Origin: Eledone cirrhosa
Lineage: Eukaryota
NCBI GenBank assembly: GCA_964016885.1
Contig: OZ024745.1
Span: 87,606,001 to 87,670,000, forward strand
Direction: 5' to 3'
Length of the DNA: 64,000 bases
Part shown: positions 11,754 through 47,490 of the stretch, piece after piece
Layout: every line of letters starts with the position of its first letter
Position numbering within the stretch: the first letter of the stretch is position 1
Position numbers and translations under genes: made by a program
The notes under the pieces: generated by a model
Seen by the model: the letters and a program-made list of their open reading frames with translations, nothing else
What the model was told of the DNA's origin: nothing
Database searches by the model: none

Positions 11754-11797
11754 ACTAATTTTCATAGAAAAAGCATATAACGATATGTGCTTTTACG

Positions 11798-11893
11798 ATT
11801 CTCCAGAAAGGCCGGTAGATAGGTAAATATTGCTGATGAGTTGTAACAACAACGAAACTAGTTCAATATTCCTTGTCTGGCTTTCTGGAGAAT
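11798..11893 (+). ncRNA. Type I hammerhead ribozyme of the satellite monomer (first copy; repeats every ~467 bp)
   Basis: Stem I aatattg(11826-32)/caatatt(11864-70); CTGATGA 11833-39; stem II gttgt(aaca)acaac; GAAA 11854-57; palindromic stem III ACTAGT; GUU triplet, predicted cut after 11863. Stem I extends via agg/cct (ta bulge) to a perfect 13-bp attctccagaaag/ctttctggagaat helix. Confidence 0.9.
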
Positions 11894-14800
11894 AGAGGAA
11901 AGGTGTTTCCTCGAAAACCAGTATGACTCTAAAAACCGGTTTGTCTGTGTGTTTACATACAGAATAGCTGGGTTACTCACAGTAAAGTAACCAGTGAAAG
12001 ACTTGTTACATCTACATATGTATACGTGTGTGTATTCATATGCATACTAGTATTTCAGTATGCATATGTAGATGTACATTTTTAACTTAATTGTTTAAGC
12101 GTCAGTCATACAAAAGTGAGTTACAAACGAAACGAAATTTAATTTCGTTTCGTTATTTGTTTTTATCGTCTCCGCTGAACCGGTGCGTACTCACACTCTA
12201 TGCAAATTAGTCTGCCCACTACTAATTTTCATAGAAAAAGCATATAACGATATGTGCTTTTACGATTCTCCAGAAAGGCCGGTAGATAGGTAAATATTGC
12301 TGATGAGTTGTAACAACAACGAAACTAGTTCAATATTCCTTGTCTGGCTTTCTGGAGAATAGAGGAAAGGTGTTTCCTCGAAAACCAGTATGACTCTAAA
12401 AACCGGTTTGTCTGTGTGTTTACATACAGAATAGCTGGGTTACTCACAGTAAAGTAACCAGTGAAAGACTTGTTACATCTACATATGTATACGTGTGTGT
12501 ATTCATATGCATACTAGTATTTCAGTATGCATATGTAGATGTACATTTTTAACTTAATTGTTTAAGCGTCAGTCATACAAAAGTGAGTTACAAACGAAAC
12601 GAAATTTAATTTCGTTTCGTTATTTGTTTTTATCGTCTCCGCTGAACCGGTGCGTACTCACACTCTATGCAAATTAGTCTGCCCACTACTAATTTTCATA
12701 GAAAAAGCATATAACGATATGTGCTTTTACGATTCTCCAGAAAGGCCGATAGATAGGTAAATATTGCTGATGAGTTGTAACAACAACGAAACTAGTTCAA
12801 TATTCCTTGTCTGGCTTTCTGGAGAATAGAGGAAAGGTGTTTCCTCGAAAACCAGTATGACTCTAAAAACCGGTTTGTCTGTGTGTTTACATACAGAATA
12901 GCTGCGTTACTCACAGTAAAGTAATCAGTGAAAGACTTGTTACATCTACATATGTATACGTGTGTGTATTCATATGCATACTAGTATTTCAGTATGCATA
13001 TGTAGATGTACATTTTTAACTTAATTGTTTAAGCGTCAGTCATACAAAAGTGAGTTACAAACGAAACGAAATTTAATTTCGTTTCGTTATTTGTTTTTAT
13101 CGTCTCCGCTGAACCGGTGCGTACTCACACTCTATGCAAATTAGTCTGCCCACTACTAATTTTCATAGAAAAAGCATATAACGATATGTGCTTTTACGAT
13201 TCTCCAGAAAGGCCGATAGATAGGTAAATATTGCTGATGAGTTGTAACAACAACGAAACTAGTTCAATATTCATTGTCTGGCTTTCTGGAGAATAGAGGA
13301 AAGGTGTTTCCTCGAAAACCAGTATGACTCTAAAAACCGGTTTGTCTGTGTGTTTACATACAGAATAGCTGGGTTACTCACAGTAAAGTAATCAGTGAAA
13401 GACTTGTTACATCTACATATGTATACGTGTGTGTATTCATATGCATACTAGTATTTCAGTATGCATATGTAGATGTACATTTTTAACTTAATTGTTTAAG
13501 CGTCAGTCATACAAAAGTGAGTTACAAACGAAACGAAATTTAATTTCGTTTCGTTATTTGTTTTTATCGTCTCCGCTGAACCGGTGCGTACTCACACTCT
13601 ATGCAAATTAGTCTGCCCACTACTAATTTTCATAGAAAAAGCATATAACGATATGTGCTTTTACGATTCTCCAGAAAGGCCGGTAGATAGGTAAATATTG
13701 CTGATGAGTTGTAACAACAACGAAACTAGTTCAATATTCCTTGTCTGGCTTTCTGGAGAATAGAGGAAAGGTGTTTCCTCGAAAACCAGTATGACTCTAA
13801 AAACCGGTTTGTCTGTGTGTTTACATACAGAATAGCTGGGTTACTCACAGTAAAGTAATCAGTGAAAGACTTGTTACATCTACATATGTATACGTGTGTG
13901 TATTCATATGCATACTAGTATTTCAGTATGCATATGTAGATGTACATTTTTAACTTAATTGTTTAAGCGTCAGTCATACAAAAGTGAGTTACAAACGAAA
14001 CGAAATTTAATTTCGTTTCGTTATTTGTTTTTATCGTCTCCGCTGAACCGGTGCGTACTCACACTCTATGCAAATTAGTCTGCCCACTACTAATTTTCAT
14101 AGAAAAAGCATATAACGATATGTGCTTTTACGATTCTCCAGAAAGGCCGGTAGATAGGTAAATATTGCTGATGAGTTGTAACAACAACGAAACTAGTTCA
14201 ATATTCCTTGTCTGGCTTTCTGGAGAATAGAGGAAAGGTGTTTCCTCGAAAACCAGTATGACTCTAAAAACCGGTTTGTCTGTGTGTTTACATACAGAAT
14301 AGCTGGGTTACTCACAGTAAAGTAATCAGTGAAAGACTTGTTACATCTACATATGTATACGTGTGTGTATTCATATGCATACTAGTATTTCAGTATGCAT
14401 ATGTAGATGTACATTTTTAACTTAATTGTTTAAGCGTCAGTCATACAAAAGTGAGTTACAAACGAAACGAAATTTAATTTCGTTTCGTTATTTGTTTTTA
14501 TCGTCTCCGCTGAACCGGTGCGTACTCACACTCTATGCAAATTAATCTGCCCACTACTAATTTTCATAGAAAAAGCATATAACGATATGTGCTTTTACGA
14601 TTCTCCAGAAAGGCCGGTAGATAGGTAAATATTGCTGATGAGTTGTAACAACAACGAAACTAGTTCAATATTCCTTGTCTGGCTTTCTGGAGAATAGAGG
14701 AAAGGTGTTTCCTCGAAAACCAGTATGACTCTAAAAACCGGTTTGTCTGTGTGTTTACATACAGAATAGCTGGGTTACTCACAGTAAAGTAATCAGTGAA

Positions 14801-17800
14801 AGACTTGTTACATCTACATATGTATACGTGTGTGTATTCATATGCATACTAGTATTTCAGTATGCATATGTAGATGTACATTTTTAACTTAATTGCTTAA
14901 GCGTCAGTCATACAAAAGTGAGTTACAAACGAAACGAAATTTAATTTCGTTTCGTTATTTGTTTTTATCGTCTCCGCTGAACCGGTGCGTACTCACACTC
15001 TATGCAAATTAGTCTGCCCACTACTAATTTTCATAGAAAAAGCATATAACGATATGTGCTTTTACGATTCTCCAGAAAGGCCGGTAGATAGGTAAATATT
15101 GCTGATGAGTTGTAACAACAACGAAACTAGTTCAATATTCCTTGTCTGGCTTTCTGGAGAATAGAGGAAAGGTGTTTCCTCGAAAACCAGTATGACTCTA
15201 AAAACCGGTTTGTCTGTGTGTTTACATACAGAATAGCTGGGTTACTCACAGTAAAGTAACCAGTGAAAGACTTGTTACATCTACATATGTATACGTGTGT
15301 GTATTCATATGCATACTAGTATTTCAGTATGCATATGTAGATGTACATTTTTAACTTAATTGTTTAAGCGTCAGTCATACAAAAGTGAGTTACAAACGAA
15401 ACGAAATTTAATTTCGTTTCGTTATTTGTTTTTATCGTCTCCGCTGAACCGGTGCGTACTCACACTCTATGCAAATTAGTCTGCCCAATACTAATTTTCA
15501 TAGAAAAAGCATATAACGATATGTGCTTTTACGATTCTCCAGAAAGGCCGGTAGATAGGTAAATATTGCTGATGAGTTGTAACAACAACGAAACTAGTTC
15601 AATATTCCTTGTCTGGCTTTCTGGAGAATAGAGGAAAGGTGTTTCCTCGAAAACCAGTATGACTCTAAAAACCGGTTTCTCTGTGTGTTTACATACAGAA
15701 TAGCTGGGTTACTCACAGTAAAGTAATCAGTGAAAGACTTGTTACATCTACATATGTATACGTGTGTGTATTCATATGCATACTAGTATTTCAGTATGCA
15801 TATGTAGATGTACATTTTTAACTTAATTGTTTAAGCGTCAGTCATACAAAAGTGAGTTACAAACGAAACGAAATTTAATTTCGTTTCGTTATTTGTTTTT
15901 ATCGTCTCCGCTGAACCGGTGCGTACTCACACTCTATGCAAATTAGTCTGCCCACTACTAATTTTCATAGAAAAAGCATATAACGATATGTGCTTTTATG
16001 ATTCTCCAGAAAGGCCGGTAGATAGGTAAATATTGCTGATGAGTTGTAACAACAACGAAACTAGTTCAATATTCCTTGTCTGGCTTTCTGGTGAATAGAG
16101 GAAAGGTGTTTCCTCGAAAACCAGTATGACTCTAAAAACCGGTTTGTCTGTGTGTTTACATACAGAATAGCTGGGTTACTCACAGTAAAGTAATCAGTGA
16201 AAGACTTGTTACATCTACATATGTATACGTGTGTGTATTCATATGCATACTAGTATTTCAGTATGCATATGTAGATGTACATTTTTAACTTAATTGTTTT
16301 CAGTCATACAAAAGTGAGTTACAAACGAAACGAAATTTAATTTCGTTTCGTTATTTGTTTTTATCGTCTCCGCTGAACCGGTGCGTACTCACACTCTATG
16401 CAAATTAGTCTGCCCACTACTAATTTTCATAGAAAAAGCATATAACGATATGTGCTTTTACGATTCTCCAGAAAGGCCGGTAGATAGGTAAATATTGCTG
16501 ATGAGTTGTAACAACAACGAAACTAGTTCAATATTCCTTGTCTGGCTTTCTGGAGAATAGAGGAAAGGTGTTTCCTCGAAAACCAGTATGACTCTAAAAA
16601 CCGGTTTGTCTGTGTGTTTACATACAGAATAGCTGGGTTACTCACAGTAAAGTAACCAGTGAAAGACTTGTTACATCTACATATGTATACGTGTGTGTAT
16701 TCATATGCATACTAGTATTTCAGTATGCATATGTAGATGTACATTTTTAACTTAATTGCTTAAGCGTCAGTCATACAAAAGTGAGTTACAAACGAAACGA
16801 AATTTAATTTCGTTTCGTTATTTGTTTTTATCGTCTCCGCTGAACCGGTGCGTACTCACACTCTATGCAAATTAGTCTGCCCACTACTAATTTTCATAGA
16901 AAAAGCATATAACGATATGTGCTTTTACGATTCTCCAGAAAGGCCGGTAGATAGGTAAATATTGCTGATGAGTTGTAACAACAACGAAACTAGTTCAATA
17001 TTCCTTGTCTGGCTTTCTGGAGAATAGAGGAAAGGTGTTTCCTCGAAAACCAGTATGACTCTAAAAACCGGTTTGTCTGTGTGTTTACATACAGAATAGC
17101 TGGGTTACTCACAGTAAAGTAACCAGTGAAAGACTTGTTACATCTACATATGTATACGTGTGTGTATTCATATGCATACTAGTATTTCAGTATGCATATG
17201 TAGATGTACATTTTTAACTTAATTGTTTAAGCGTCAGTCATACAAAAGTGAGTTACAAACGAAACGAAATTTAATTTCGTTTCGTTATTTGTTTTTATCG
17301 TCTCCGCTGAACCGGTGCGTACTCACACTCTATGCAAATTAGTCTGCCCAATACTAATTTTCATAGAAAAAGCATATAACGATATGTGCTTTTACGATTC
17401 TCCAGAAAGGCCGGTAGATAGGTAAATATTGCTGATGAGTTGTAACAACAACGAAACTAGTTCAATATTCCTTGTCTGGCTTTCTGGAGAATAGAGGAAA
17501 GGTGTTTCCTCGAAAACCAGTATGACTCTAAAAACCGGTTTCTCTGTGTGTTTACATACAGAATAGCTGGGTTACTCACAGTAAAGTAATCAGTGAAAGA
17601 CTTGTTACATCTACATATGTATACGTGTGTGTATTCATATGCATACTAGTATTTCAGTATGCATATGTAGATGTACATTTTTAACTTAATTGTTTAAGCG
17701 TCAGTCATACAAAAGTGAGTTACAAACGAAACGAAATTTAATTTCGTTTCGTTATTTGTTTTTATCGTCTCCGCTGAACCGGTGCGTACTCACACTCTAT

Positions 17801-20800
17801 GCAAATTAGTCTGCCCACTACTAATTTTCATAGAAAAAGCATATAACGATATGTGCTTTTATGATTCTCCAGAAAGGCCGGTAGATAGGTAAATATTGCT
17901 GATGAGTTGTAACAACAACGAAACTAGTTCAATATTCCTTGTCTGGCTTTCTGGTGAATAGAGGAAAGGTGTTTCCTCGAAAACCAGTATGACTCTAAAA
18001 ACCGGTTTGTCTGTGTGTTTACATACAGAATAGCTGGGTTACTCACAGTAAAGTAATCAGTGAAAGACTTGTTACATCTACATATGTATACGTGTGTGTA
18101 TTCATATGCATACTAGTATTTCAGTATGCATATGTAGATGTACATTTTTAACTTAATTGTTTTCAGTCATACAAAAGTGAGTTACAAACGAAACGAAATT
18201 TAATTTCGTTTCGTTATTTGTTTTTATCGTCTCCGCTGAACCGGTGCGTACTCACACTCTATGCAAATTAGTCTGCCCACTACTAATTTTCATAGAAAAA
18301 GCATATAACGATATGTGCTTTTACGATTCTCCAGAAAGGCCGGTAGATAGGTAAATATTGCTGATGAGTTGTAACAACAACGAAACTAGTTCAATATTCC
18401 TTGTCTGGCTTTCTGGAGAATAGAGGAAAGGTGTTTCCTCGAAAACCAGTATGACTCTAAAAACCGGTTTGTCTGTGTGTTTACATACAGAATAGCTGGG
18501 TTACTCACAGTAAAGTAACCAGTGAAAGACTTGTTACATCTACATATGTATACGTGTGTGTATTCATATGCATACTAGTATTTCAGTATGCATATGTAGA
18601 TGTAAATTTTTAACTTAATTGTTTAAGCGTCAGTCATACAAAAGTGAGTTACAAACGAAACGAAATTTAATTTCGTTTCGTTATTTGTTTTTATCGTCTC
18701 CGCTGAACCGGTGCGTACTCACACTCTATGCAAATTAGTCTGCCCACTACTAATTTTCATAGAAAAAGCATATAACGATATGTGCTTTTACGATTCTCCA
18801 GAAAGGCCTGTAGATAGGTAAATATTGCTGATGAGTTGTAACAACAACGAAACTAGTTCAATATTCCTTGTCTGGCTTTCTGGAGAATAGAGGAAAGGTG
18901 TTTCCTCGAAAACCAGTATGACTCTAAAAACCGGTTTCTCTGTGTGTTTACATACAGAATAGCTGGGTTACTCACAGTAAAGTAATCAGTGAAAGACTTG
19001 TTACATCTACATATGTATACGTGTGTGTATTCATATGCATACTAGTATTTCAGTATGCATATGTAGATGTACATTTTTAACTTAATTGCTTAAGCGTCAG
19101 TCATACAAAAGTGAGTTACAAACGAAACGAAATTTAATTTCGTTTCGTTATTTGTTTTTATCGTCTCCGCTGAACCGGTGCGTACTCACACTCTATGCAA
19201 ATTAGTCTGCCCACTACTAATTTTCATAGAAAAAGCATATAACGATATGTGCTTTTACGATTCTCCAGAAAGGCCGGTAGATAGGTAAATATTGCTGATG
19301 AGTTGTAACAACAACGAAACTAGTTCAATATTCCTTGTCTGGCTTTCTGGACAATAGAGGAAAGGTGTTTCCTCGAAAACCAGTATGACTCTAAAAACCG
19401 GTTTGTCTGTGTGTTTACATACAGAATAGCTGGGTTACTCACAGTAAAGTAACCAGTGAAAGACTTGTTACATCTACATATGTATACGTGTGTGTATTCA
19501 TATGCATACTAGTATTTCAGTATGCATATGTAGATGTACATTTTTAACTTAATTGTTTAAGCGTCAGTCATACAAAAGTGAGTTACAAACGAAACGAAAT
19601 TTAATTTCGTTTCGTTATTTGTTTTTATCGTCTCCGCTGAACCGGTGCGTACTCACACTCTATGCAAATTAGTCTGCCCACTACTAATTTTCATAGAAAA
19701 AGCATATAACGATATGTGCTTTTATGATTCTCCAGAAAGGCCGGTAGATAGGTAAATATTGCTGATGAGTTGTAACAACAACGAAACTAGTTCAATATTC
19801 CTTGTCTGGCTTTCTGGAGAATAGAGGAAAGGTGTTTCCTCGAAAACCAGTATGACTCTAAAAACCGGTTTGTCTGTGTGTTTACATACAGAATAGCTGG
19901 GTTACTCACAGTAAAGTAATCAGTGAAAGACTTGTTACATCTACATATGTATACGTGTGTGTATTCATATGCATACTAGTATTTCAGTATGCATATGTAG
20001 ATGTACATTTTTAACTTAATTGCTTAAGCGTCAGTCATACAAAAGTGAGTTACAAACGAAACGAAATTTAATTTCGTTTCGTTATTTGTTTTTATCGTCT
20101 CCGCTGAACCGGTGCGTACTCACACTCTATGCAAATTAGTCTGCCCACTACTAATTTTCATAGAAAAAGCATATAACGATATGTGCTTTTACGATTCTCC
20201 AGAAAGGCCGGTAGATAGGTAAATATTGCTGATGAGTTGTAACAACAACGAAACTAGTTCAATATTCCTTGTCTGGCTTTCTGGAGAATAGAGGAAAGGT
20301 GTTTCCTCGAAAACCAGTATGACTCTAAAAACCGGTTTGTCTGTGTGTTTACATACAGAATAGCTGGGTTACTCACAGTAAAGTAACCAGTGAAAGACTT
20401 GTTACATCTACATATGTATACGTGTGTGTATTCATATGCATACTAGTATTTCAGTATGCATATGTAGATGTACATTTTTAACTTAATTGTTTAAGCGTCA
20501 GTCATACAAAAGTGAGTTACAAACGAAACGAAATTTAATTTCGTTTCGTTATTTGTTTTTATCGTCTCCGCTGAACCGGTGCGTACTCACACTCTATGCA
20601 AATTAGTCTGCCCACTACTAATTTTCATAGAAAAAGCATATAACGATATGTGCTTTTATGATTCTCCAGAAAGGCCGGTAGATAGGTAAATATTGCTGAT
20701 GAGTTGTAACAACAACGAAACTAGTTCAATATTCCTTGTCTGGCTTTCTGGAGAATAGAGGAAAGGTGTTTCCTCGAAAACCAGTATGACTCTAAAAACC

Positions 20801-23800
20801 GGTTTGTCTGTGTGTTTACATACAGAATAGCTGGGTTACTCACAGTAAAGTAATCAGTGAAAGACTTGTTACATCTACATATGTATACGTGTGTGTATTC
20901 ATATGCATACTAGTATTTCAGTATGCATATGTAGATGTACATTTTTAACTTAATTGTTTAAGCGTCAGTCATACAAAAGTGAGTTACAAACGAAACGAAA
21001 TTTAATTTCGTTTCGTTATTTGTTTTTATCTATCGTCTCCGCTGAACCGGTGCGTACTCACACTCTATGCAAATTAGTCTGCCCACTACTAATTTTCATA
21101 GAAAAAGCATATAACGATATGTGCTTTTACGATTCTCCAGAAAGGCCGGTAGATAGGTAAATATTGCTGATGAGTTGTAACAACAACGAAACTAGTTCAA
21201 TATTCCTTGTCTGGCTTTCTGGAGAATAGAGGAAATGTGTTTCCTCGAAAACCAGTATGACTCTAAAAACCGGTTTCTCTGTGTGTTTACATACAGAATA
21301 GCTGGGTTACTCACAGTAAAGTAATCAGTGAAAGACTTGTTACATCTACATATGTATACGTGTGTGTATTCATATGCATACTAGTATTTCAGTATGCATA
21401 TGTAGATGTACATTTTTAACTTAATTGCTTAAGCGTCAGTCATACAAAAGTGAGTTACAAACGAAACGAAATTTAATTTCGTTTCGTTATTTGTTTTTAT
21501 CGTCTCCGCTGAACCGGTGCGTACTCACACTCTATGCAAATTAGTCTGCCCACTACTAATTTTCATAGAAAAAGCATATAACGATATGTGCTTTTACGAT
21601 TCTCCAGAAAGGCCGGTAGATAGGTAAATATTGCTGATGAGTTGTAACAACAACGAAACTAGTTCAATATTCCTTGTCTGGCTTTCTGGAGAATAGAGGA
21701 AAGGTGTTTCCTCGAAAACCAGTATGACTCTAAAAACCGGTTTGTCTGTGTGTTTACATACAGAATAGCTGGGTTACTCACAGTAAAGTAACCAGTGAAA
21801 GACTTGTTACATCTACATATGTATACGTGTGTGTATTCATATGCATACTGGTATTTCAGTATGCATATGTAGATGTACATTTTTAACTTAATTGTTTAAG
21901 CGTCAGTCATACAAAAGTTAGTTACAAACGAAACGAAATTTAATTTCGTTTCGTTATTTGTTTTTATCGTCTCCGCTGAACCGGTGCGTACTCACACTCT
22001 ATGCAAATTAGTCTGCCCACTACTAATTTTCATAGAAAAAGCATATAACGATATGTGCTTTTACGATTCTCCAGAAAGGCCGGTAGATAGGTAAATATTG
22101 CTGATGAGTTGTAACAACAACGAAACTAGTTCAATATTCCTTGTCTGGCTTTCTGGAGAATAGAGGAAAGGTGTTTCCTCGAAAACCAGTATGACTCTAA
22201 AAACCGGTTTGTCTGTGTGTTTACATACAGAATAGCTGGGTTACTCACAGTAAAGTAATCAGTGAAAGACTTGTTACATCTACATATGTATACGTGTGTG
22301 TATTCATATGCATACTAGTATTTCAGTATGCATATGTAGATGTACATTTTTAACTTAATTGTTTAAGCGTCAGTCATACAAAAGTGAGTTACAAACGAAA
22401 CGAAATTTAATTTCGTTTCGTTATTTGTTTTTATCGTCTCCGCTGAACCGGTGCGTACTCACACTCTATGCAAATTAGTCTGCCCACTACTAATTTTCAT
22501 AGAAAAAGCATATAACGATATGTGCTTTTACGATTCTCCAGAAAGGCCGGTAGATAGGTAAATATTGCTGATGAGTTGTAACAACAACGAAACTAGTTCA
22601 ATATTCCTTGTCTGGCTTTCTGGAGAATAGAGGAAAGGTGTTTCCTCGAAAACCAGTATGACTCTAAAAACCGGTTTGTCTGTGTGTTTACATACAGAAT
22701 AGCTGGGTTACTCACAGTAAAGTAATCAGTGAAAAACTTGTTACATCTACATATGTATACGTGTGTGTATTCATATGCATACTAGTATTTCAGTATGCAT
22801 ATGTAGATGTACATTTTTAACTTAATTGTTTAAGCGTCAGTCATACAAAAGTGAGTTACAAACGAAACGAAATTTAATTTCGTTTCGTTATTTGTTTTTA
22901 TCGTCTCCGCTGAACCGGTGCGTACTCACACTCTATGCAAATTAGTCTGCCCACTACTAATTTTCATAGAAAAGGCATATAACGATATGTGCTTTTACGA
23001 TTCTCCAGAAAGGCCGGTAGATAGGTAAATATTGCTGATGAGTTGTAACAACAACGAAACTAGTTCAATATTCCTTGTCTGGCTTTCTGGAGAATAGAGG
23101 AAAGGTGTTTCCTCGAAAACCAGTATGACTCTAAAAACCGGTTTGTCTGTGTGTTTACATACAGAATAGCTGGGTTACTCACAGTAAAGTAATCAGTGAA
23201 AGACTTGTTACATCTACATATGTATACGTGTGTGTATTCATATGCATACTAGTATTTTAGTATGCATATGTAGATGTACATTTTTAACTTAATTGTTTAA
23301 GCGTCAGTCATACAAAAGTGAGTTACAAACGAAACGAAATTTAATTTCGTTTCGTTATTTGTTTTTATCGTCTCCGCTGAACCGGTGCGTACTCACACTC
23401 TATGCAAATTAGTCTGCCCACTACTAATTTTCATAGAAAAAGCATATAACGATATGTGCTTTTACGATTCTCCAGAAAGGCCGGTAGATAGGTAAATATT
23501 GCTGATGAGTTGTAACAACAACGAAACTAGTTCAATATTCCTTGTCTGGCTTTCTGGAGAATAGAGGAAAGGTGTTTCCTCGAAAACCAGTATGACTCTA
23601 AAAACCGGTTTGTCTGTGTGTTTACATACAGAATAGCTGGGTTACTCACAGTAAAGTAATCAGTGAAAGACTTGTTACATCTACATATGTATACGTGTGT
23701 GTATTCATATGCATACTAGTATTTCAGTATGCATATGTAGATGTACATTTTTAACTTAATTGTTTAAGCGTCAGTCATACAAAAGTGAGTTACAAACGAA

Positions 23801-24129
23801 ACGAAATTTAATTTCGTTTCGTTATTTGTTTTTATCGTCTCCGCTGAACCGGTGCGTACTCACACTCTATGCAAATTAGTCTGCCCACTACTAATTTTCA
23901 TAGAAAAAGCATATAACGATATGTGCTTTTACGATTCTCCAGAAAGGCCGGTAGATAGGTAAATATTGCTGATGAGTTGTAACAACAACGAAACTAGTTC
24001 AATATTCCTTGTCTGGCTTTCTGGAGAATAGAGGAAAGGTGTTTCCTCGAAAACCAGTATGACTCTAAAAACCGGTTTGTCTGTGTGTTTACATACAGAA
24101 TAGCTGGGTTACTCACAGTAAAGTAATCA

Positions 24130-27100
24130 GTGAAAAACTTGTTACATCTACATATGTATACGTGTGTGTATTCATATGCATACTAGTATTTCAGTATGCA
24201 TATGTAGATGTACATTTTTAACTTAATTGTTTAAGCGTCAGTCATACAAAAGTGAGTTACAAACGAAACGAAATTTAATTTCGTTTCGTTATTTGTTTTT
24301 ATCGTCTCCGCTGAACCGGTGCGTACTCACACTCTATGCAAATTAGTCTGCCCACTACTAATTTTCATAGAAAAGGCATATAACGATATGTGCTTTTACG
24401 ATTCTCCAGAAAGGCCGGTAGATAGGTAAATATTGCTGATGAGTTGTAACAACAACGAAACTAGTTCAATATTCCTTGTCTGGCTTTCTGGAGAATAGAG
24501 GAAAGGTGTTTCCTCGAAAACCAGTATGACTCTAAAAACCGGTTTGTCTGTGTGTTTACATACAGAATAGCTGGGTTACTCACAGTAAAGTAATCAGTGA
24601 AAGACTTGTTACATCTACATATGTATACGTGTGTGTATTCATATGCATACTAGTATTTTAGTATGCATATGTAGATGTACATTTTTAACTTAATTGTTTA
24701 AGCGTCAGTCATACAAAAGTGAGTTACAAACGAAACGAAATTTAATTTCGTTTCGTTATTTGTTTTTATCGTCTCCGCTGAACCGGTGCGTACTCACACT
24801 CTATGCAAATTAGTCTGCCCACTACTAATTTTCATAGAAAAAGCATATAACGATATGTGCTTTTACGATTCTCCAGAAAGGCCGGTAGATAGGTAAATAT
24901 TGCTGATGAGTTGTAACAACAACGAAACTAGTTCAATATTCCTTGTCTGGCTTTCTGTAGAATAGAGGAAAGGTGTTTCCTCGAAAACCAGTATGACTCT
25001 AAAAACCGGTTTGTCTGTGTGTTTACATACAGAATAGCTGGGTTACTCACAGTAAAGTAATCAGTGAAAGACTTGTTACATCTACATATGTATACGTGTG
25101 TGTATTCATATGCATACTAGTATTTCAGTATGCATATGTAGATGTACATTTTTAACTTAATTGTTTAAGCGTCAGTCATACAAAAGTGAGTTACAAACGA
25201 AACGAAATTTAATTTCGTTTCGTTATTTGTTTTTATCGTCTCCGCTGAACCGGTGCGTACTCACACTCTATGCAAATTAGTCTGCCCACTACTAATTTTC
25301 ATAGAAAAAGCATATAACGATATGTGCTTTTACGATTCTCCAGAAAGGCCTGTAGATAGGTAAATATTGCTGATGAGTTGTAACAACAACGAAACTAGTT
25401 CAATATTCCTTGTCTGGCTTTCTGGAGAATAGAGGAAAGGTGTTTCCTCGAAAACCAGTATGACTCTAAAAACCGGTTTGTCTGTGTGTTTACATACAGA
25501 ATAGCTGGGTTACTCACAGTAAAGTAACCAGTGAAAGACTTGTTACATCTACATATGTATACGTGTGTGTATTCATATGCATACTGGTATTTCAGTCTGC
25601 ATATGTAGATGTACATTTTTAACTTAATTGTTTAAGCGTCAGTCATACAAAAGTGAGTTACAAACGAAACGAAATTTAATTTCGTTTCGTTATTTGTTTT
25701 TATCGTCTCCGCTGAACCGGTGCGTACTCACACTCTATGCAAATTAGTCTGCCCACTACTAATTTTCATAGAAAAAGCATATAACGATATGTGCTTTTAC
25801 GATTCTCCAGAAAGGCCGGTAGATAGGTAAATATTGCTGATGAGTTGTAACAACAACGAAACTAGTTCAATATTCCTTGTCTGGCTTTCTGGAGAATAGA
25901 GGAAAGGTGTTTCCTCGAAAACCAGTATGACTCTAAAAACCGGTTTGTCTGTGTGTTTACATACAGAATAGCTGGGTTACTCACAGTAAAGTAATCAGTG
26001 AAAGACTTGTTACATCTACATATGTATACGTGTGTGTATTCATATGCATACTAGTATTTCAGTATGCATATGTAGATGTACATTTTTAACTTAATTGTTT
26101 AAGCGTCAGTCATACAAAAGTGAGTTACAAACGAAACGAAATTTAATTTCGTTTCGTTATTTGTTTTAATCGTCTCCGCTGAACCGGTGCGTACTCACAC
26201 TCTATGCAAATTAGTCTGCCCACTACTAATTTTCATAGAAAAAGCATATAACGATATGTGCTTTTACGATTCTCCAGAAAGGCCGGTAGATAGGTAAATA
26301 TTGCTGATGAGTTGTAACAACAACGAAACTAGTTCAATATTCCTTGTCTGGCTTTCTGGAGAATAGAGGAAAGGTGTTTCCTCGAAAACCAGTATGACTC
26401 TAAAAACCGGTTTGTCTGTGTGTTTACATACAGAATAGCTGGGTTACTCACAGTAAAGTAACCAGTGAAAGACTTGTTACATCTACATATGTATACGTGT
26501 GTGTATTCATATGCATACTAGTATTTCAGTATGCATATGTAGATGTACATTTTTAACTTAATTGTTTAAGCGTCAGTCATACAAAAGTGAGTTACAAACG
26601 AAACGAAATTTAATTTCGTTTCGTTATTTGTTTTTATCGTCTCCGCTGAACCGGTGCGTACTCACACTCTATGCAAATTAGTCTGCCCACTACTAATTTT
26701 CATAGAAAAAGCATATAACGATATGTGCTTTTACGATTCTCCAGAAAGGCCTGTAGATAGGTAAATATTGCTGATGAGTTGTAACAACAACGAAACTAGT
26801 TCAATATTCCTTGTCTGGCTTTCTGGAGAATAGAGGAAAGGTGTTTCCTCGAAAACCAGTATGACTCTAAAAACCGGTTTCTCTGTGTGTTTACATACAG
26901 AATAGCTGGGTTACTCACAGTAAAGTAATCAGTGAAAGACTTGTTACATCTACATATGTATACGTGTGTGTATTCATATGCATACTAGTATTTCAGTATG
27001 CATATGTAGATGTACATTTTTAACTTAATTGTTTAAGCGTCAGTCATACAAAAGTGAGTTACAAACGAAACGAAATTTAATTTCGTTTCGTTATTTGTTT

Positions 27101-30100
27101 TTATCGTCTCCGCTGAACCGGTGCGTACTCACACTCTATGCAAATTAGTCTGCCCACTACTAATTTTCATAGAAAAAGCATATAACGATATGTGCTTTTA
27201 CGATTCTCCAGAAAGGCCGGTAGATAGGTAAATATTGCTGATGAGTTGTAACAACAACGAAACTAGTTCAATATTCCTTGTCTGGCTTTCTGGAGAATAG
27301 AGGAAAGGTGTTTCCTCGAAAACCAGTATGACTCTAAAAACCGGTTTGTCTGTGTGTTTACATACAGAATAGCTGGGTTACTCACAGTAAAGTAACCAGT
27401 GAAAGACTTGTTACATCTACATATGTATACGTGTGTGTATTCATATGCATACTGGTATTTCAGTATGCATATGTAGATATACATTTTTAACTTAATTGTT
27501 TAAGCGTCAGTCATACAAAAGTGAGTTACAAACAAAACGAAATTTAATTTCGTTTCGTTATTTGTTTTTATCGTCTCCGCTGAACCGGTGCGTACTCACA
27601 CTCTATGCAAATTAGTCTGCCCACTACTAATTTTCATAGAAAAAGCATATAACGATATGTGCTTTTACGATTCTCCAGAAAGGCCGGTAGATAGGTAAAT
27701 ATTGCTGATGAGTTGTAACAACAACGAAACTAGTTCAATATTCCTTGTCTGGCTTTCTGGAGAATAGAGGAAAGGTGTTTCCTCGAAAACCAGTATGACT
27801 CTAAAAACCGGTGTGTCTGTGTGTTTACATACAGAATAGCTGGGTTACTCACAGTAAAGTAATCAGTGAAAGACTTGTTACATTTACATATGTATACGTG
27901 TGTGTATTCATATGCATACTAGTATTTCAGTATGCATATGTAGATGTACATTTTTAACTTAATTGTTTAAGCGTCAGTCATACAAAAGTGAGTTACAAAC
28001 GAAACGAAATTTAATTTCGTTTCGTTATTTGTTTTTATCGTCTCCGCTGAACCGGTGCGTACTCACACTCTATGCAAATTAGTCTGCCCACTACTAATTT
28101 TCATAGAAAAAGCATATAACGATATGTGCTTTTACGATTCTCCAGAAAGGCCGGTAGATAGGTAAATATTGCTGATGAGTTGTAACAACAACGAAACTAG
28201 TTCAATATTCCTTGTCTGGCTTTCTGGAGAATAGAGGAAAGGTGTTTCCTCGAAAACCAGTATGACTCTAAAAACCGGTTTCTCTGTGTGTTTACATACA
28301 GAATAGCTGGGTTACTCACAGTAAAGTAATCAGTGAAAGACTTGTTACATCTACATATGTATACGTGTGTGTATTCATATGCATACTAGTATTTCAGTAT
28401 GCATATGTAGATGTACATTTTTAACTTAATTGTTTAAGCGTCAGTCATACAAAAGTGAGTTACAAACGAAACGAAATTTAATTTCGTTTCGTTATTTGTT
28501 TTTATCGTCTCCGCTGAACCGGTGCGTACTCACACTCTATGCAAATTAGTCTGCCCACTACTAATTTTCATAGAAAAAGCATATAACGATATGTGCTTTT
28601 ACGATTCTCCAGAAAGGCCGGTAGATAGGTAAATATTGCTGATGAGTTGTAACAACAACGAAACTAGTTCAATATTCCTTGTCTGGCTTTCTGGAGAATA
28701 GAGGAAAGGTGTTTCCTCGAAAACCAGTATGACTCTAAAAACCGGTTTGTCTGTGTGTTTACATACAGAATAGCTGGGTTACTCACAGTAAAGTAACCAG
28801 TGAAAGACTTGTTACATCTACATATGTATACGTGTGTGTATTCATATGCATACTGGTATTTCAGTATGCATATGTAGATGTACATTTTTAACTTAATTGT
28901 TTAAGCGTCAGTCATACAAAAGTGAGTTACAAACAAAACGAAATTTAATTTCGTTTCGTTATTTGTTTTTATCGTCTCCGCTGAACCGGTGCGTACTCAC
29001 ACTCTATGCAAATTAGTCTGCCCACTACTAATTTTCATAGAAAAAGCATATAACGATATGTGCTTTTACGATTCTCCAGAAAGGCCGGTAGATAGGTAAA
29101 TATTGCTGATGAGTTGTAACAACAACGAAACTAGTTCAATATTCCTTGTCTGGCTTTCTGGGGAATAGAGGAAAGGTGTTTCCTCGAAAAACAGTATGAC
29201 TCTAAAAACCGGTTTGTCTGTGTGTTTACATACAGAATAGCTGGGTTACTCACAGTAAAGTAACCAGTGAAAGACTTGTTACATCTACATATGTATACCT
29301 GTGTGTATTCATATGCATACTAGTATTTCAGTATGCATATGTAGATGTACATTTTTAACTTAATTGTTTAAGCGTCAGTCATACAAAAGTGAGTTACAAA
29401 CGAAACGAAATTTAATTTCGTTTCGTTATTTGTTTTTATCGTCTCCGCTGAACCGGTGCGTACTCACACTCTATGCAAATTAGTCTGCCCAATACTAATT
29501 TTCATAGAAAAAGCATATAACGATATGTGCTTTTACGATTCTCCAGAAAGGCCGGTAGATAGGTAAATATTGCTGATGAGTTGTAACAACAACGAAACTA
29601 GTTCAATATTCCTTGTCTGGCTTTCTGGAGAATAGAGGAAAGGTGTTTCCTCGAAAACCAGTATGACTCTAAAAACCGGTGTGTCTGTGTGTTTACATAC
29701 AGAATAGCTGGGTTACTCACAGTAAAGTAATCAGTGAAAGACTTGTTACATTTACATATGTATACGTGTGTGTATTCATATGCATACTAGTATTTCAGTA
29801 TGCATATGTAGATGTACATTTTTAACTTAATTGTTTAAGCGTCAGTCATACAAAAGTGAGTTACAAACGAAACGAAATTTAATTTCGTTTCGTTATTTGT
29901 TTTTATCGTCTCCGCTGAACCGGTGCGTACTCACACTCTATGCAAATTAGTCTGCCCACTACTAATTTTCATAGAAAAGGCATATAACGATATGTGCTTT
30001 TACGATTCTCCAGAAAGGCCGGTAGATAGGTAAATATTGCTGATGAGTTGTAACAACAACGAAACTAGTTCAATATTCCTTGTCTGGCTTTCTGGAGAAT

Positions 30101-33100
30101 AGAGGAAAGGTGTTTCCTCGAAAACCAGTATGACTCTAAAAACCGGTTTGTCTGTGTGTTTACATACAGAATAGCTGGGTTACTCACAGTAAAGTAATCA
30201 GTGAAAGACTTGTTACATCTACATATGTATACGTGTGTGTATTCATATGCATACTAGTATTTCAGTATGCATATGTAGATGTACATTTTTAACTTAATTG
30301 CTTAAGCGTCAGTCATACAAAAGTGAGTTACAAACGAAACGAAATTTAATTTCGTTTCGTTATTTGTTTTTATCGTCTCCGCTGAACCGGTGCGTACTCA
30401 CACTCTATGCAAATTAGTCTGCCCACTACTAATTTTCATAGAAAAAGCATATAACGATATGTGCTTTTACGATTCTCCAGAAAGGCCGGTAGATAGGTAA
30501 ATATTGCTGATGAGTTGTAACAACAACGAAACTAGTTCAATATTCCTTGTCTGGCTTTCTGGAGAATAGAGGAAAGGTGTTTCCTCGAAAACCAGTATGA
30601 CTCTAAAAACCGGTTTGTCTGTGTGTTTACATACAGAATAGCTGGGTTACTCACAGTAAAGTAACCAGTGAAAGACTTGTTACATCTACATATGTATAAG
30701 TGTGTGTATTCATATGCATACTAGTATTTCAGTATGCATATGTAGATGTACATTTTTAACTTAATTGTTTAAGCGTCAGTCATACAAAAGTGAGTTACAA
30801 ACGAAACGAAATTTAATTTCGTTTCGTTATTTGTTTTTATCGTCTCCGCTGAACCGGTGCGTACTCACACTCTATGCAAATTAGTCTGCCCAATACTAAT
30901 TTTCATAGAAAAAGCATATAACGATATGTGCTTTTACGATTCTCCAGAAAGGCCGGTAGATAGGTAAATATTGCTGATGAGTTGTAACAACAACGAAACT
31001 AGTTCAATATTCCTTGTCTGGCTTTCTGGAGAATAGAGGAAAGGTGTTTCCTCGAAAACCAGTATGACTCTAAAAACCGGTTTGTCTGTGTGTTTACATA
31101 CAGAATAGCTGGGTTACTCACAGTAAAGTAATCAGTGAAAGACTTGTTACATCTACATATGTATACGTGTGTGTATTCATATGCATACTAGTATTTCAGT
31201 ATGCATATGTAGATGTACATTTTTAACTTAATTGTTTAAGCGTCAGTCATACAAAAGTGAGTTACAAACGAAACGAAATTTAATTTCGTTTCGTTATTTG
31301 TTTTTATCGTCTCCGCTGAACCGGTGCGTACTCACACTCTATGCAAATTAGTCTGCCCACTACTAATTTTCATAGAAAAAGCATATAACGATATGTGCTT
31401 TTATGATTCTCCAGAAAGGCCGGTAGATAGGTAAATATTGCTGATGAGTTGTAACAACAAGGAAACTAGTTCAATATTCCTTGTCTGGCTTTCTGGTGAA
31501 TAGAGGAAAGGTGTTTCCTCGAAAACCAGTATGACTCTAAAAACCGGTTTGTCTGTGTGTTTACATACAGAATAGCTGGGTTACTCACAGTAAAGTAATC
31601 AGTGAAAGACTTGTTACATCTACATATGTATACGTGTGTGTATTCATATGCATACTAGTATTTCAGTATGCATATGTAGATGTACATTTTTAACTTAATT
31701 GTTTTCAGTCATACAAAAGTGAGTTACAAACGAAACGAAATTTAATTTCGTTTCGTTATTTGTTTTTATCTATCGTCTCCGCTGAACCGGTGCGTACTCA
31801 CACTCTATGCAAATTAGTCTGCCCACTACTAATTTTCATAGAAAAAGCATATAACGATATGTGCTTTTACGATTCTCCAGAAAGGCCGGTAGATAGGTAA
31901 ATATTGCTGATGAGTTGTAACAACAACGAAACTAGTTCAATATTCCTTGTCTGGCTTTCTGGAGAATAGAGGAAAGGTGTTTCCTCGAAAACCAGTATGA
32001 CTCTAAAAACCGGTTTGTCTGTGTGTTTACATACAGAATAGCTGGGTTACTCACAGTAAAGTAACCAGTGAAAGACTTGTTACATCTACATATGTATACG
32101 TGTGTGTATTCATATGCATACTAGTATTTCAGTATGCATATGTAGATGTAAATTTTTAACTTAATTTTTTAAGCGTCAGTCATACAAAAGTGAGTTACAA
32201 ACGAAACGAAATTTAATTTCGTTTCGTTATTTGTTTTTATCGTCTCCGCTGAACCGGTGCGTACTCACACTCTATGCAAATTAGTCTGCCCACTACTAAT
32301 TTTCATAGAAAAAGCATATAACGATATGTGCTTTTACGATTCTCCAGAAAGGCCTGTAGATAGGTAAATATTGCTGATGAGTTGTAACAACAACGAAACT
32401 AGTTCAATATTCCTTGTCTGGCTTTCTGGAGAATAGAGGAAAGGTGTTTCCTCGAAAACCAGTATGACTCTAAAAACCGGTTTCTCTGTGTGTTTACATA
32501 CAGAATAGCTGGGTTACTCACAGTAAAGTAATCAGTGAAAGACTTGTTACATCTACATATGTATACGTGTGTGTATTCATATGCATACTAGTATTTCAGT
32601 ATGCATATGTAGATGTACATTTTTAACTTAATTGTTTAAGCGTCAGTCATACAAAAGTGAGTTACAAACGAAACGAAATTTAATTTCGTTTCGTTATTTG
32701 TTTTTATCGTCTCCGCTGAACCGGTGCGTACTCACACTCTATGCAAATTAGTCTGCCCACTACTAATTTTCATAGAAAAAGCATATAACGATATGTGCTT
32801 TTATGATTCTCCAGAAAGGCAGGTAGATAGGTAAATATTGCTGATGAGTTGTAACAACAACGAAACTAGTTCAATATTCCTTGTCTGGCTTTCTGGAGAA
32901 TAGAGGAAAGGTGTTTCCTCGAAAACCAGTATGACTCTAAAAACCGGTTTGTCTGTGTGTTTACATACAGAATAGCTGGGTTACTCACAGTAAAGTAATC
33001 AGTGAAAGACTTGTTACATCTACATATGTATACGTGTGTGTATTCATATGCATACTAGTATTTCAGTATGCATACGTAGATGTACATTTTTAACTTAATT

Positions 33101-45100: not shown

Positions 45101-47490
45101 TCTGTGTGTTTACATACAGAATAGCTGGGTTACTCACAGTAAAGTAATCAGTGAAAGACTTGTTACATCTACATATGTATACGTGTGTGTATTCATATGC
45201 ATACTAGTATTTCAGTATGCATATGTAGATGTACATTTTTAACTTAATTGCTTAAGCGTCAGTCATACAAAAGTGAGTTACAAACAAAACGAAATTTAAT
45301 TTCGTTTCGTTATTTGTTTTTATCGTCTCCGCTGAACCGGTGCGTACTCACACTCTATGCAAATTAGTCTGCCCACTAAAAATTTTCATAGAAAAAGCAT
45401 ATAACGATATGTGCTTTTACGATTCTCCAGAAAGGCCGGTAGATAGGTAAATATTGCTGATGAGTTGTAACAACAACGAAACTAGTTCAATATTCCTTGT
45501 CTGGCTTTCTGGGGAATAGAGGAAAGGTGTTTCCTCGAAAACCAGTATGACTCTAAAAACCGGTTTGTCTGTGTGTTTACATACAGAATAGCTGGGTTAC
45601 TCACAGTAAAGTAACCAGTGAAAGACTTGTTACATCTACATATGTATACGTGTGTGTATTCATATGCATACTAGTATTTCAGTATGCATATGTAGATGTA
45701 CATTTTTAACTTAATTGTTTAAGCGTCAGTCATACAAAAGTGAGTTACAAACGAAACGAAATTTAATTTCGTTTCGTTATTTGTTTTTATCGTCTCCGCT
45801 GAACCGGTGCGTACTCACTCTCTATGCAAATTAGTCTGCCCAATACTAATTTTCATAGAAAAAGCATATAACGATATGTGCTTTTACGATTCTCCAGAAA
45901 GGCCGGTAGATAGGTAAATATTGCTGATGAGTTGTAACAACAACGAAACTAGTTCAATATTCCTTGTCTGGCTTTCTGGAGAATAGAGGAAAGGTGTTTC
46001 CTCGAAAACCAGTATGACTCTAAAAACCGGTTTGTCTGTGTGTTTACATACAGAATAGCTGGGTTACTCACAGTAAAGTAATCAGTGAAAGACTTGTTAC
46101 ATCTACATATGTATACGTGTGTGTATTCATATGCATACTAGTATTTCAGTATGCATATGTAGATGTACATTTTTAACTTAATTGCTTAAGCGTCAGTCAT
46201 ACAAAAGTGAGTTACAAACGAAACGAAATTTAATTTCGTTTCGTTATTTGTTTTTATCGTCTCCGCTGAACCGGTGCGTACTCACACTCTATGCAAATTA
46301 GTCTGCCCACTACTAATTTTCATAGAAAAAGCATATAACGATATGTGCTTTTACGATTCTCCAGAAAGGCCGGTAGATAGGTAAATATTGCTGATGAGTT
46401 GTAACAACAACGAAACTAGTTCAATATTCCTTGTCTGGCTTTCTGGAGAATAGAGGAAAGGTGTTTCCTCGAAAACCAGTATGACTCTAAAAACCGGTTT
46501 GTCTGTGTGTTTACATACAGAATAGCTGGGTTACTCACAGTAAAGTAACCAGTGAAAGACTTGTTACATCTACATATGTATAAGTGTGTGTATTCATATG
46601 CATACTAGTATTTCAGTATGCATATGTAGATGTACATTTTTAACTTAATTGTTTAAGCGTCAGTCATACAAAAGTGAGTTACAAACGAAACGAAATTTAA
46701 TTTCGTTTCGTTATTTGTTTTTATCGTCTCCGCTGAACCGGTGCGTACTCACACTCTATGCAAATTAGTCTGCCCAATACTAATTTTCATAGAAAAAGCA
46801 TATAACGATATGTGCTTTTACGATTCTCCAGAAAGGCCGGTAGATAGGTAAATATTGCTGATGAGTTGTAACAACAACGAAACTAGTTCAATATTCCTTG
46901 TCTGGCTTTCTGGAGAATAGAGGAAAGGTGTTTCCTCGAAAACCAGTATGACTCTAAAAACCGGTTTGTCTGTGTGTTTACATACAGAATAGCTGGGTTA
47001 CTCACAGTAAAGTAATCAGTGAAAGACTTGTTACATCTACATATGTATACGTGTGTGTATTCATATGCATACTAGTATTTCAGTATGCATATGTAGATGT
47101 ACATTTTTAACTTAATTGTTTAAGCGTCAGTCATACAAAAGTGAGTTACAAACGAAACGAAATTTAATTTCGTTTCGTTATTTGTTTTTATCGTCTCCGC
47201 TGAACCGGTGCGTACTCACACTCTATGCAAATTAGTCTGCCCACTACTAATTTTCATAGAAAAAGCATATAACGATATGTGCTTTTATGATTCTCCAGAA
47301 AGGCCGGTAGATAGGTAAATATTGCTGATGAGTTGTAACAACAACGAAACTAGTTCAATATTCCTTGTCTGGCTTTCTGGTGAATAGAGGAAAGGTGTTT
47401 CCTCGAAAACCAGTATGACTCTAAAAACCGGTTTGTCTGTGTGTTTACATACAGAATAGCTGGGTTACTCACAGTAAAGTAATCAGTGAA
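24130..47490 (+). repeat. Higher-order repeat: two tandem copies of a 25-monomer block (11,678 bp)
   Basis: Diagnostic variants recur at offset 11,678: 24133/35811, 31461/43139, 35703/47381; ORF-track pairs 27263/38941, 28664/40342, 33099/44777. 11,678 = 25x467+3. Boundaries approximate. Confidence 0.9.

What the first reader, a model, noticed from the sequence alone, without database searches (positions are those of the whole stretch)
11854..11864. Palindromic 2-bp stem III implies cleavage as a double hammerhead between neighbouring monomers
Seen: stem III is ACUAGU, only 2 bp with a 2-nt loop as a monomer but self-complementary, so two copies form a 6-bp intermolecular helix. Established: newt satellite 2, ASBVd and PLE minimal hammerheads cleave as dimers through palindromic stem III. 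Inference: tandem arrangement is functionally required, linking catalysis to array architecture. The triplet is GUU, usually slower than GUC/GUA, which could leave a ladder of multimeric RNAs.
Basis: partly seen in the sequence, partly recalled or inferred. Interest (0 to 1): 0.75.

Follow-up and report, generated by a model that had tools for sequence, protein, structure and literature searches.

The report
Retrozyme hammerhead built for paired cutting
Each 467-base unit of this jumping repeat carries a self-cutting RNA motif whose third stem is a six-letter palindrome, kept self-complementary across related families in this genome, so two neighbouring copies likely have to pair up to cut efficiently, which is a mechanism already known from newt and viroid RNAs.

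Summary
Observation confirmed. 11854-11864 reads GAAACTAGTTC: stem III ACUAGU, triplet GUU, in 112 of 112 window cores. It belongs to a canonical (not minimal) type I hammerhead in a 467-bp non-LTR retrozyme with at least 5,081 cores in this genome. The palindrome alone is a 1-in-4 coincidence, but the genome supports it. Of 39,207 cores with a 2-nt loop, 38,066 have UA. Doubly changed loops number 483 (about 3 expected), and 95 of the first 100 listed are AU or GC, forming separate families. Single-change loops are mostly scattered mutants. ViennaRNA puts the double hammerhead 3-5.5 kcal/mol below one single fold for this family. Dimer-favoured cleavage is likely (0.72) but already described for newt, axolotl and ASBVd. 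'Tandem array required' is too strong: the 147-unit array is one Penelope-type insertion expanded by local duplication, and one insertion has a broken palindrome on both arms. Multimeric templates appear as DNA fossils, but also with GUA, so GUU is not shown to cause them. No cleavage or expression data.

The parts
11754..64000 (+). Tandem array of a 467-bp non-LTR retrozyme (112 hammerhead cores in the window; 147 in the whole 68.6-kb array, which runs on to about G000:C5:87,686,380 and ends at unit position 303 followed by (TA)n)
11864..12330 (+). One unit, cut site to cut site; predicted branched fold closed by stem I (-162.4 kcal/mol, z = -11.1; circular MFE -158.1)
11798..11832 (+). 5' arm of extended stem I, with the UA bulge (11824-11825) of the canonical loop 1/loop 2 contact
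11833..11839 (+). Catalytic core CUGAUGA
11840..11853 (+). Stem II GUUG/CAAC with loop UAACAA; the sister subfamily has the compensated GAUG/CAUC
11854..11862 (+). GAA plus palindromic stem III ACUAGU (11857-11862), the given finding
11863..11864 (+). H17 = U (GUU triplet); predicted cleavage between 11863 and 11864
   Evidence: sequence and hammerhead consensus
11864..11893 (+). 3' arm of extended stem I; pairs either with its own 5' arm (local fold) or with the next unit's 5' arm (swapped fold that closes the unit)
12265..12360 (+). Second hammerhead copy (core at 12300), nearest partner for a double hammerhead
12089..12097 (+). Unit positions 226-234: one of two fixed outer ends of dispersed insertions (inferred reverse-transcription start)
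12162..12167 (+). Unit positions 299-304: the other fixed outer end; also the end of this array

Best explanation
This is the stem III of a canonical type I hammerhead in a 467-nt non-LTR retrozyme, and it likely cuts efficiently only as a double hammerhead, in which two copies swap stem I partners and join their ACUAGU hexamers into one 6-bp helix. SHOWN: the anatomy; at least 5,081 cores of this family; palindrome-preserving covariation across hammerhead families of this genome; Penelope-type insertion ends. PREDICTED by folding: a lone copy or a monomer circle pays about 8.5 kcal/mol to reach the active secondary structure, while in a dimer the local and swapped folds of the 29-bp stem I are equal in energy and the swapped one carries the 6-bp stem III. 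INFERRED: read-through transcripts of two or more units are cut by paired ribozymes. The released unit is already closed by its own stem I and is ligated to a circle (RtcB-type ligase, by analogy with PMC7229834). The circle is stable because its single ribozyme is weak. A Penelope-like RT/endonuclease copies circles or uncut multimers into (TA)n sites from two fixed start points. Cleavage is incomplete, so multimers are also copied. The dependence on a partner is probably strong but not absolute, and needs two copies, not a long array.
For: Pattern CTGANGA-N13-15-GAAAC-xy-GT-H-N6-TCC in the own genome, with four searches covering all 16 loops: TA 38,066, VA 286 (46), TB 372 (47), VB 483 (44); reversed-pattern controls 0. 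Independent double mutation predicts 2.8 VB copies. Of the first 100 of 483 VB rows listed, 72 are AT, 23 GC and 5 non-palindromic (hand tally); they belong to an old AT family, a 310-bp GC family and two smaller AT cases. The first 100 of 173 rows with another 15.2-16.2 pair include two recurring ATGCAT groups. Recurring groups with longer loops among the first 100 of 201 rows are self-complementary apart from a central base or G-U pairs (ACGTCGT, ACAGACTGT, ACAGATCTGT, ACATTAGTGT, read by eye). In 10 hand-picked representatives all three stem III positions are complementary in 30 of 30 cells, including the loop pair (UA 6, AU 2, GC 2), against 85% for stems I and II. Single-change loops are mostly lone copies. 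Of 9 mutant-loop loci fetched for a closer look (L100, L103-L108, L117, L118), the two with all units UG can still wobble-pair (L104 6 of 6, L118 2 of 2), and six mix mutant and normal units. ViennaRNA on a window dimer at 37 C: double -210.8, one single -205.2, two singles -196.7 kcal/mol; with looser constraints the double is 3.2 below one single. Axolotl HHR_Amex1, with one pair capped by a palindromic tetraloop, cleaves 6% in 1 h as a monomer and much better as a dimer (PMC7229834). Insertions: 40 of 58 loci are head-to-head two-armed, 37 of 40 with one end at 299-304 and the other at 226-235; 96 of 98 outer ends abut AT-rich repeat, matching the two-start 'tail' of PLEs (PMC11167929; PMC8557442). 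Uniform arms of up to 14 units (L031/32, L059) and periodic or arm-shared variants (L011, L014, L015, L033) point to both monomer-circle and multimer templates.
Against: No cleavage assay and no expression evidence. ViennaRNA cannot form a 2-nt loop and ignores core and tertiary contacts, so it overstates the monomer penalty. For sister and other families the double fold is only 0.7-0.9 kcal/mol better than one single fold, or up to 4.1 worse. The direct refolding path from local to swapped has a predicted barrier of 20.6 kcal/mol, and the local stem I forms first during transcription. [quoted passage not shown] L103 has ACAAGT on both arms (2 of 2 cores) and L106 has ACTCGT in 3 of 4 units. 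One recurring group reads ATTATT at this place and was not examined. The families are related, so the loop states are about four to five independent changes, not hundreds. A predicted excess of wobble UG over its mirror CA was not significant (about 29 vs 22 loci, hand tally).
Confidence: 0.72

Rival explanations
1. The ribozyme cleaves adequately as a single hammerhead, held by its long stem I and loop 1/loop 2 contact (or by a protein); the palindrome only adds an optional dimer route or is inherited from a PLE ancestor.
For: The canonical tertiary motif is intact. The 29-bp local stem I forms first and the predicted swap barrier is 20.6 kcal/mol. Coral and mussel monomers cleave (PMC7229834). 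The anole PLE hammerhead is protein-assisted (PMC11167929). L103 carries a broken palindrome on both arms.
Against: Loop changes that founded families are double and complementary, while 658 single-change copies founded no large family in the rows listed (200 of 658 seen). No recurring family with a stable non-palindromic loop was seen among the first 100 of 201 longer-loop rows. The closest published geometry (axolotl Amex1) needs a dimer.
Confidence: 0.17
2. Strict version of the first reader's claim: cleavage happens only between neighbouring units, so selection on catalysis builds and keeps the tandem array, and the slow GUU site sets a multimer ladder.
For: The dimer MFE is the neighbour-swapped fold. 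L100 alternates ACATGT and ACTAGT units with strict period 2 in one arm, as expected if incompatible neighbours are left uncut. Multimer-templated insertions exist in the GUU family.
Against: Most insertions hold few units. The long array is one insertion expanded by DNA-level block duplications of 9 and 25 units. Periodic insertions also occur with GUA (L100, L108). H17 is U, C or A in lineages with thousands of copies. The L100 pattern could equally be a later duplication.
Confidence: 0.08
3. The hammerhead is not needed for mobility: Penelope machinery copies uncut multimeric read-through transcripts, and the motif is a passenger.
For: Arms read through the cut site many times, and 5' ends do not pile up at it: 7 of 98 lie within -16..+1 (3.6 expected, p 0.07), and 0 of 33 in the position-ordered set. 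Anole PLE insertion in vitro does not need cleavage (PMC11167929). Only 1 of 9 Xenopus dimers cleaved in vitro (10.64898/2026.07.22.740005).
Against: Core invariance with covariation in all three stems across families (88.5% paired, 37 cells with change on both sides, 0 of 500 shuffles as high; relatedness not controlled). Uniform arms of 13-14 identical units fit a monomer circle.
Confidence: 0.03

Closest known systems
Axolotl HHR_Amex1 / newt satellite 2 hammerhead (PMC7229834, parts 2-4 of 6 read; Forster et al. 1988 seen as a reference title only)
   Same: Canonical type I hammerhead in a tandem unit; one pair capped by a palindromic tetraloop; tertiary motif present; multimers expected.
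   Different: Unit of 467 nt rather than about 330; 29-bp extended stem I; GUU triplet; activity untested here. If the host is an invertebrate (an earlier scan note calls it an octopus; not tested here), it departs from the statement in PMC7761336 (passages) that most invertebrate motifs have a stable helix III.
Metazoan non-LTR retrozymes (coral, mussel, axolotl; PMC7229834; 10.64898/2026.07.22.740005, parts 1-3 of 5 read)
   Same: Protein-free AT-rich tandem unit, one type I hammerhead per unit, highly self-paired predicted RNA, thousands of copies, coexisting with PLEs.
   Different: Unit slightly above the 150-450 bp first described, but inside the 51-972 bp range of the 2026 preprint. Two-armed (TA)n insertions with two fixed ends are not described in the parts read. 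Circular RNA not shown here.
Double hammerhead of ASBVd(+) and other viroid-like RNAs (PMC6466107, passages)
   Same: 2-bp stem III merged between two copies; proposed to allow cleavage in multimers and spare the monomer circle (PMC4209133).
   Different: Genomic retroelement copied through DNA; ribozyme on one strand only (no match on the reverse strand).
PLE minimal hammerheads and PLE insertions (PMC4209133, parts 1-2 of 4; PMC11167929, parts 1-2 of 4; PMC8557442, passages)
   Same: Palindromic positions 15.2-16.2 and loop 3; inverted 5'-truncated arm; two RT start sites; (TA)n targets.
   Different: This ribozyme is canonical (4-bp stem II, no extra base after A9, loop 1 motif); no ORF; the two ends are about 70 nt apart rather than the 30-40 nt tail.

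Membership tests
Canonical type I hammerhead ribozyme | Core CUGANGA, GAAA and NUH flanked by three helices, open at stem I | tested here: met
   covariation
Canonical type I hammerhead ribozyme | Loop 1/loop 2 tertiary-contact motif | tested here: met
   Aligned to the HH9 consensus (UA bulge, 6-nt loop 2 ending in A); sequence level only
Rfam hammerhead families | Score at or above the gathering threshold | tested here: not met
   HH9 38.6 bits vs 52; no match at gathering
Canonical type I hammerhead ribozyme | Site-specific self-cleavage | not testable with these tools
   needs an in vitro assay
Double-hammerhead (dimer-dependent) ribozymes | Stem III of 1-2 bp with a self-complementary loop | tested here: met
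   ACUAGU in 146 of 147 array cores
Double-hammerhead (dimer-dependent) ribozymes | Self-complementarity kept through compensatory change | tested here: met
   exceptions L103, L106 and one unexamined ATTATT group
Double-hammerhead (dimer-dependent) ribozymes | Dimer fold favoured over single fold | tested here: inconclusive
   Favoured by 3.2-5.5 kcal/mol for this family, by -0.9 to +4.1 for others; model lacks 2-nt loops and tertiary terms; 20.6 kcal/mol path barrier
Double-hammerhead (dimer-dependent) ribozymes | Dimer cleaves much faster than monomer | not testable with these tools
   needs kinetics
Non-LTR retrozyme | Short non-coding tandem unit, GC below 50%, one type I HHR per unit | tested here: met
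   467 bp, 35% GC, no ORF of 100 aa or more inside the first unit
Non-LTR retrozyme | Dispersed multi-copy insertions | tested here: met
   5,081 cores; 58 loci mapped
Non-LTR retrozyme | Expressed as linear and circular RNA | tested here: inconclusive
   no RNA holder listed; only indirect DNA evidence of circular templates
PLE minimal hammerhead | Long helix II (6-8 bp), extra base after position 9, short helix I without loop 1 motif | tested here: not met
   4-5 bp stem II directly after A9; 29-bp stem I
PLE-mobilised element | Inverted 5'-truncated arm, two fixed start sites, microsatellite target | tested here: met
   37 of 40 two-armed loci with one end of each kind; 96 of 98 ends at AT-rich repeat
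PLE-mobilised element | Identified autonomous partner | not tested
   A PLE-like ORF ending at (TA)n lies at 1118-3843, but no link to the retrozyme was tested

The most novel reading that the evidence does not exclude
The weak palindromic stem III and the unusually long stem I together act as a folding checkpoint. Single-hammerhead cuts would leave units chained by a 29-bp helix (predicted nicked duplex -36.6 kcal/mol). The double hammerhead can form only after neighbouring units have exchanged stem I partners, which closes the unit between them into its circle-ready fold. The ribozyme would therefore fire only when a ligatable circle is already formed, and stay off in the finished circle. 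The genome's roughly 39,000 copies record this as a natural mutagenesis: only self-complementary loops found families, and units with incompatible loops are carried along uncut in multimeric templates (L100).
Probability: 0.3. Interest if true: 0.6.

Novelty: new member of a known kind. Interest (0 to 1): 0.36.

Why it matters
The mechanism is old (double hammerhead, 1988) and palindromic helix III is the described norm in animal repeat hammerheads, so the finding as stated would not surprise a specialist. What this genome adds is scale: about 39,000 canonical cores in several related families whose loop changed only between self-complementary states, which is evolutionary evidence that pairing between copies is under selection. 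It also supplies natural variants (UA, AU, GC, UG and AA loops; GUU, GUC and GUA triplets) for a clean test of how animal retrozyme circles are made and kept from cutting themselves, a point PMC7229834 leaves open.

Tried and rejected
RNA evidence: the look-up of sequencing runs listed 6 holders, none on record as RNA ('no RNA holder listed'). Contigs of 4 of the 6 were laid: no joints, no change listed in the core or stem III among the rows shown; kind unknown, so not used as evidence. Pile-up of 5' ends at the cut site as a fossil of cleavage: 7 of 98, p 0.07, window chosen after looking, 0 of 33 in the position-ordered set; rejected. Excess of wobble UG over mirror-image CA loops: not significant (hand tally). 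L105 first looked like a period-2 insertion of a broken loop, but the spacing is 3, 2, 2 with no co-varying site; dropped as evidence. Family C (ACATGT) looked like solo copies, which would have argued against tandem use; it is an old decayed retrozyme with tandem remnants. GUU versus GUC multimer frequency: too few multi-unit GUC loci; not tested. Within-array conservation of stem III has no power at 99% identity. A second ribozyme copy on the reverse strand: none. microRNA matches are AT-repeat hairpins. Papers not held: two newt papers by Epstein, Pabon-Pena and co-workers, so their single-hammerhead results rest on one title and recall. The supplement of PMC7229834, which shows the coral, mussel and axolotl ribozyme structures, could not be read; a text search of the PMC3088659 supplements gave nothing, and bioRxiv supplements are closed. 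These may already show the same helix III types. Literature searches listed no paper on retrozymes of this lineage or on stem I exchange as a circularisation checkpoint; the library lacks most subscription papers. PMC1636495, PMC3138052, PMC11875169 and PMC2837043 (passages) added no GUU rate or direct test.

Full report
OBSERVATION. Window 11854-11864 reads GAAACTAGTTC. It is the GAAA-stem III-cleavage segment of a type I hammerhead on the + strand: core CUGAUGA at 11833-11839, stem II GUUG/CAAC with loop UAACAA, stem III A11857-U11862 and C11858-G11861 around a UA loop, H17 = U11863, and stem I AAUAUUG/CAAUAUU, which extends to 29 pairs between 11798 and 11893. Rfam HH9 aligns over the whole motif, including the UA bulge and 6-nt loop 2 of the canonical tertiary contact, at 38.6 bits, below the family cut-off of 52. 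So this is a canonical ribozyme with a very weak helix III, not a PLE minimal one.

WHAT IT SITS IN. The motif recurs every 467 bp from about 11754 to the window end: 112 cores, 98.96% mean identity, ACTAGTT in 112 of 112. The unit folds far better than shuffles (z = -11.1). The array continues to about G000:C5:87,686,380, has 147 cores (146 with ACTAGTT), shows block duplications of 9 and 25 units, and ends at unit position 303 followed by (TA)n. The genome holds 5,081 cores of this family by exact pattern and 4,070 of sister subfamilies (88-95% identical where compared) with a compensated stem II and GUU or GUC. I mapped 58 dispersed loci: 37 from the top-scoring hits, 20 taken in order of position, and 1 beside the window. 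Forty are head-to-head two-armed, and 37 of these 40 have one outer end at 299-304 and the other at 226-235. All 58 have at least one such end, and 96 of 98 outer ends abut AT-rich repeat. Inverted 5'-truncated arms, two start sites and (TA)n targets are hallmarks of Penelope-like elements (PMC8557442, passages; PMC11167929, parts 1-2 of 4). The element is a non-LTR retrozyme (PMC7229834, parts 2-4 of 6; 10.64898/2026.07.22.740005, parts 1-3 of 5). Earlier scan notes on other DNA of this genome already report these Penelope-type ends; I had reached that reading before the look-up.

IS THE PALINDROME MORE THAN CHANCE? In one sequence, no: with a 2-bp stem, 4 of 16 loops are palindromic. Across the genome, yes. 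Four searches that together cover all 16 loops in the frame CTGANGA-N13-15-GAAAC-xy-GT-H-N6-TCC gave TA 38,066, VA 286, TB 372 and VB 483, with 0 control matches. Independent double mutation would give 2.8 VB copies. Of the first 100 of the 483 VB rows, 72 are AT, 23 GC and 5 not palindromic (hand tally). They resolve into an old AT family, a 310-bp GC family, an AT variant inside the large GUA family and one solo AT copy. The 200 of 658 single-change rows that were listed are mostly lone mutants of the big families. With another pair at 15.2-16.2, two recurring groups read ATGCAT; one group reads ATTATT and was not examined; much of that list is noise (first 100 of 173, control 21). Recurring groups with longer loops are self-complementary apart from a central base or wobble pairs, and none has a stable non-palindromic loop (first 100 of 201, control 23, by eye). 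In an alignment of 10 hand-picked representatives (odd-loop and ATTATT groups left out), the three stem III positions are complementary in 30 of 30 cells, and the loop pair, which cannot form in a hairpin, is UA 6, AU 2, GC 2; stems I and II are 85% paired. The families are related, so this is about four or five independent changes. Against strict necessity: L103 has ACAAGT on both arms and L106 has ACTCGT in 3 of 4 units. The two other all-mutant loci among the 9 fetched have UG, which can wobble-pair. A first-generation mutant circle made with a normal partner would explain L103, but that is inference.

FOLDING. In a window dimer the MFE is the partner-swapped fold with the 6-bp ACUAGU helix. 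Constrained ensembles at 37 C are -210.8 (double), -205.2 (one single) and -196.7 kcal/mol (two singles); a lone copy or a monomer circle pays 8.5 kcal/mol to reach the active fold. With looser constraints the advantage is 3.2 for this family, 0.7-0.9 for three others, and -4 for two loci of the GUA family. Mismatched natural pairs are about 4-7 kcal/mol worse than matched ones of the same family. The model cannot form 2-nt loops and has no tertiary terms, so these figures are indicative only. Fully local and fully swapped stem I folds are equal in energy (-209.3 and -209.4), and the direct path between them has a 20.6 kcal/mol barrier. The swapped fold is the one that closes the unit on itself, whereas single cuts would leave units chained by a -36.6 kcal/mol duplex. 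That is the basis of the checkpoint idea in the section on the most novel reading; it is predicted, not shown.

GUU AND THE LADDER. A published ranking places GUU below GUC and GUA (PMC8879150, passage); I saw no rate for GUU in a natural, tertiary-stabilised hammerhead. Here H17 is U, C or A in lineages of thousands of copies, and the nearly identical family of this window has U. DNA fossils support both templates: arms of up to 13-14 identical units (L031/32, L059) fit a monomer circle read round and round, and variants in the same order on both arms (L011) or with period 2 or 4 (L014, L015, L033) fit uncut multimers. Later duplication can mimic the single-arm cases. Periodic insertions also occur with GUA (L100, L108), and axolotl RNA shows multimers too, so GUU is not shown to be the cause. 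5' ends do not pile up at the cut site (7 of 98; p 0.07).

COMPARISON. PMC4209133 (parts 1-2 of 4) states that most metazoan type I hammerheads have a 1-2 bp helix III capped by a small palindromic loop, cleave as dimers, and that this is thought to spare the monomer circle. PMC3088659 (Fig S8 legend) reports the palindromic character across repeats. Axolotl HHR_Amex1 has the same geometry and needs a dimer, while coral and mussel monomers cleave alone (PMC7761336, passages). ASBVd is reviewed in PMC6466107 (passages). It works like the newt/axolotl double hammerhead, and it is a member of the non-LTR retrozymes by every DNA-level feature tested; cleavage and circular RNA could not be tested (no RNA holder listed).

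VERDICT. Observation confirmed; interpretation partly supported. Dimer-favoured cleavage is likely (0.72); an adequately active monomer 0.17; strict neighbour-only cleavage that shapes the array 0.08; passenger ribozyme 0.03. New member of a known kind, interest 0.36. The added value is the within-genome covariation and a ready set of natural variants for testing.

Noticed in passing
window 1118-3843 (+), 3578-3625 and 9127-9174: Penelope-like ORF of 751 aa after an in-frame stop (weak RVT_1, E 0.00088; Cys-rich linker before the C-terminal part), followed by a terminal repeat with a long-stem-II hammerhead whose stem III reads AGGACU (by eye), ending at (TA)n 3845. A candidate mobiliser type.
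   Followed up: partly
   Followed up: no
window 9289-11754: C-rich, frameshifted PLE-like remnant whose tail of CACTAAC-like words abuts the truncated 5' end of the array at a shared ACTAAT; the array has only one arm.
   Followed up: no
window 12079-12083 and 12160-12164 (unit 216-220, 297-301): Both fixed insertion ends lie just 3' of U5 runs in largely unpaired regions; the 303 end could be a Pol III-type stop as well as an internal RT start.
   Followed up: no
L100 (G000:C1:319892000-319898500): Two-armed insertion whose minus arm alternates ACATGT and ACTAGT units with strict period 2, and whose plus-arm unit is a mosaic of both types.
   Followed up: partly
L011, L014, L015, L033: Variants shared in the same order by both arms (L011) or repeating every 2 or 4 units suggest multimeric RNA templates with uncut ribozymes.
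   Followed up: partly
own genome: At least eight other hammerhead groups; the largest (30,742 pattern matches, mostly GUA) has a U-U mismatch at the base of stem II, like axolotl HHR_Amex2.
   Followed up: partly
window 12045-12061, run X4 record 12: One low-depth contig (3.2) with T>C at most T positions of a long hairpin, which looks like A-to-I hyper-editing of the antisense strand; run type unknown.
   Followed up: no
window 11833-11835 with 11859-11861: In the predicted monomer and circle folds the core CUG pairs with the UAG of stem III, an inactive alternative that could further silence the lone ribozyme; it is not available to the AU- or GC-loop families.
   Followed up: no
window array, units about 37-80 and 95-119: Block duplications of 25 and 9 units show DNA-level expansion after insertion.
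   Followed up: yes
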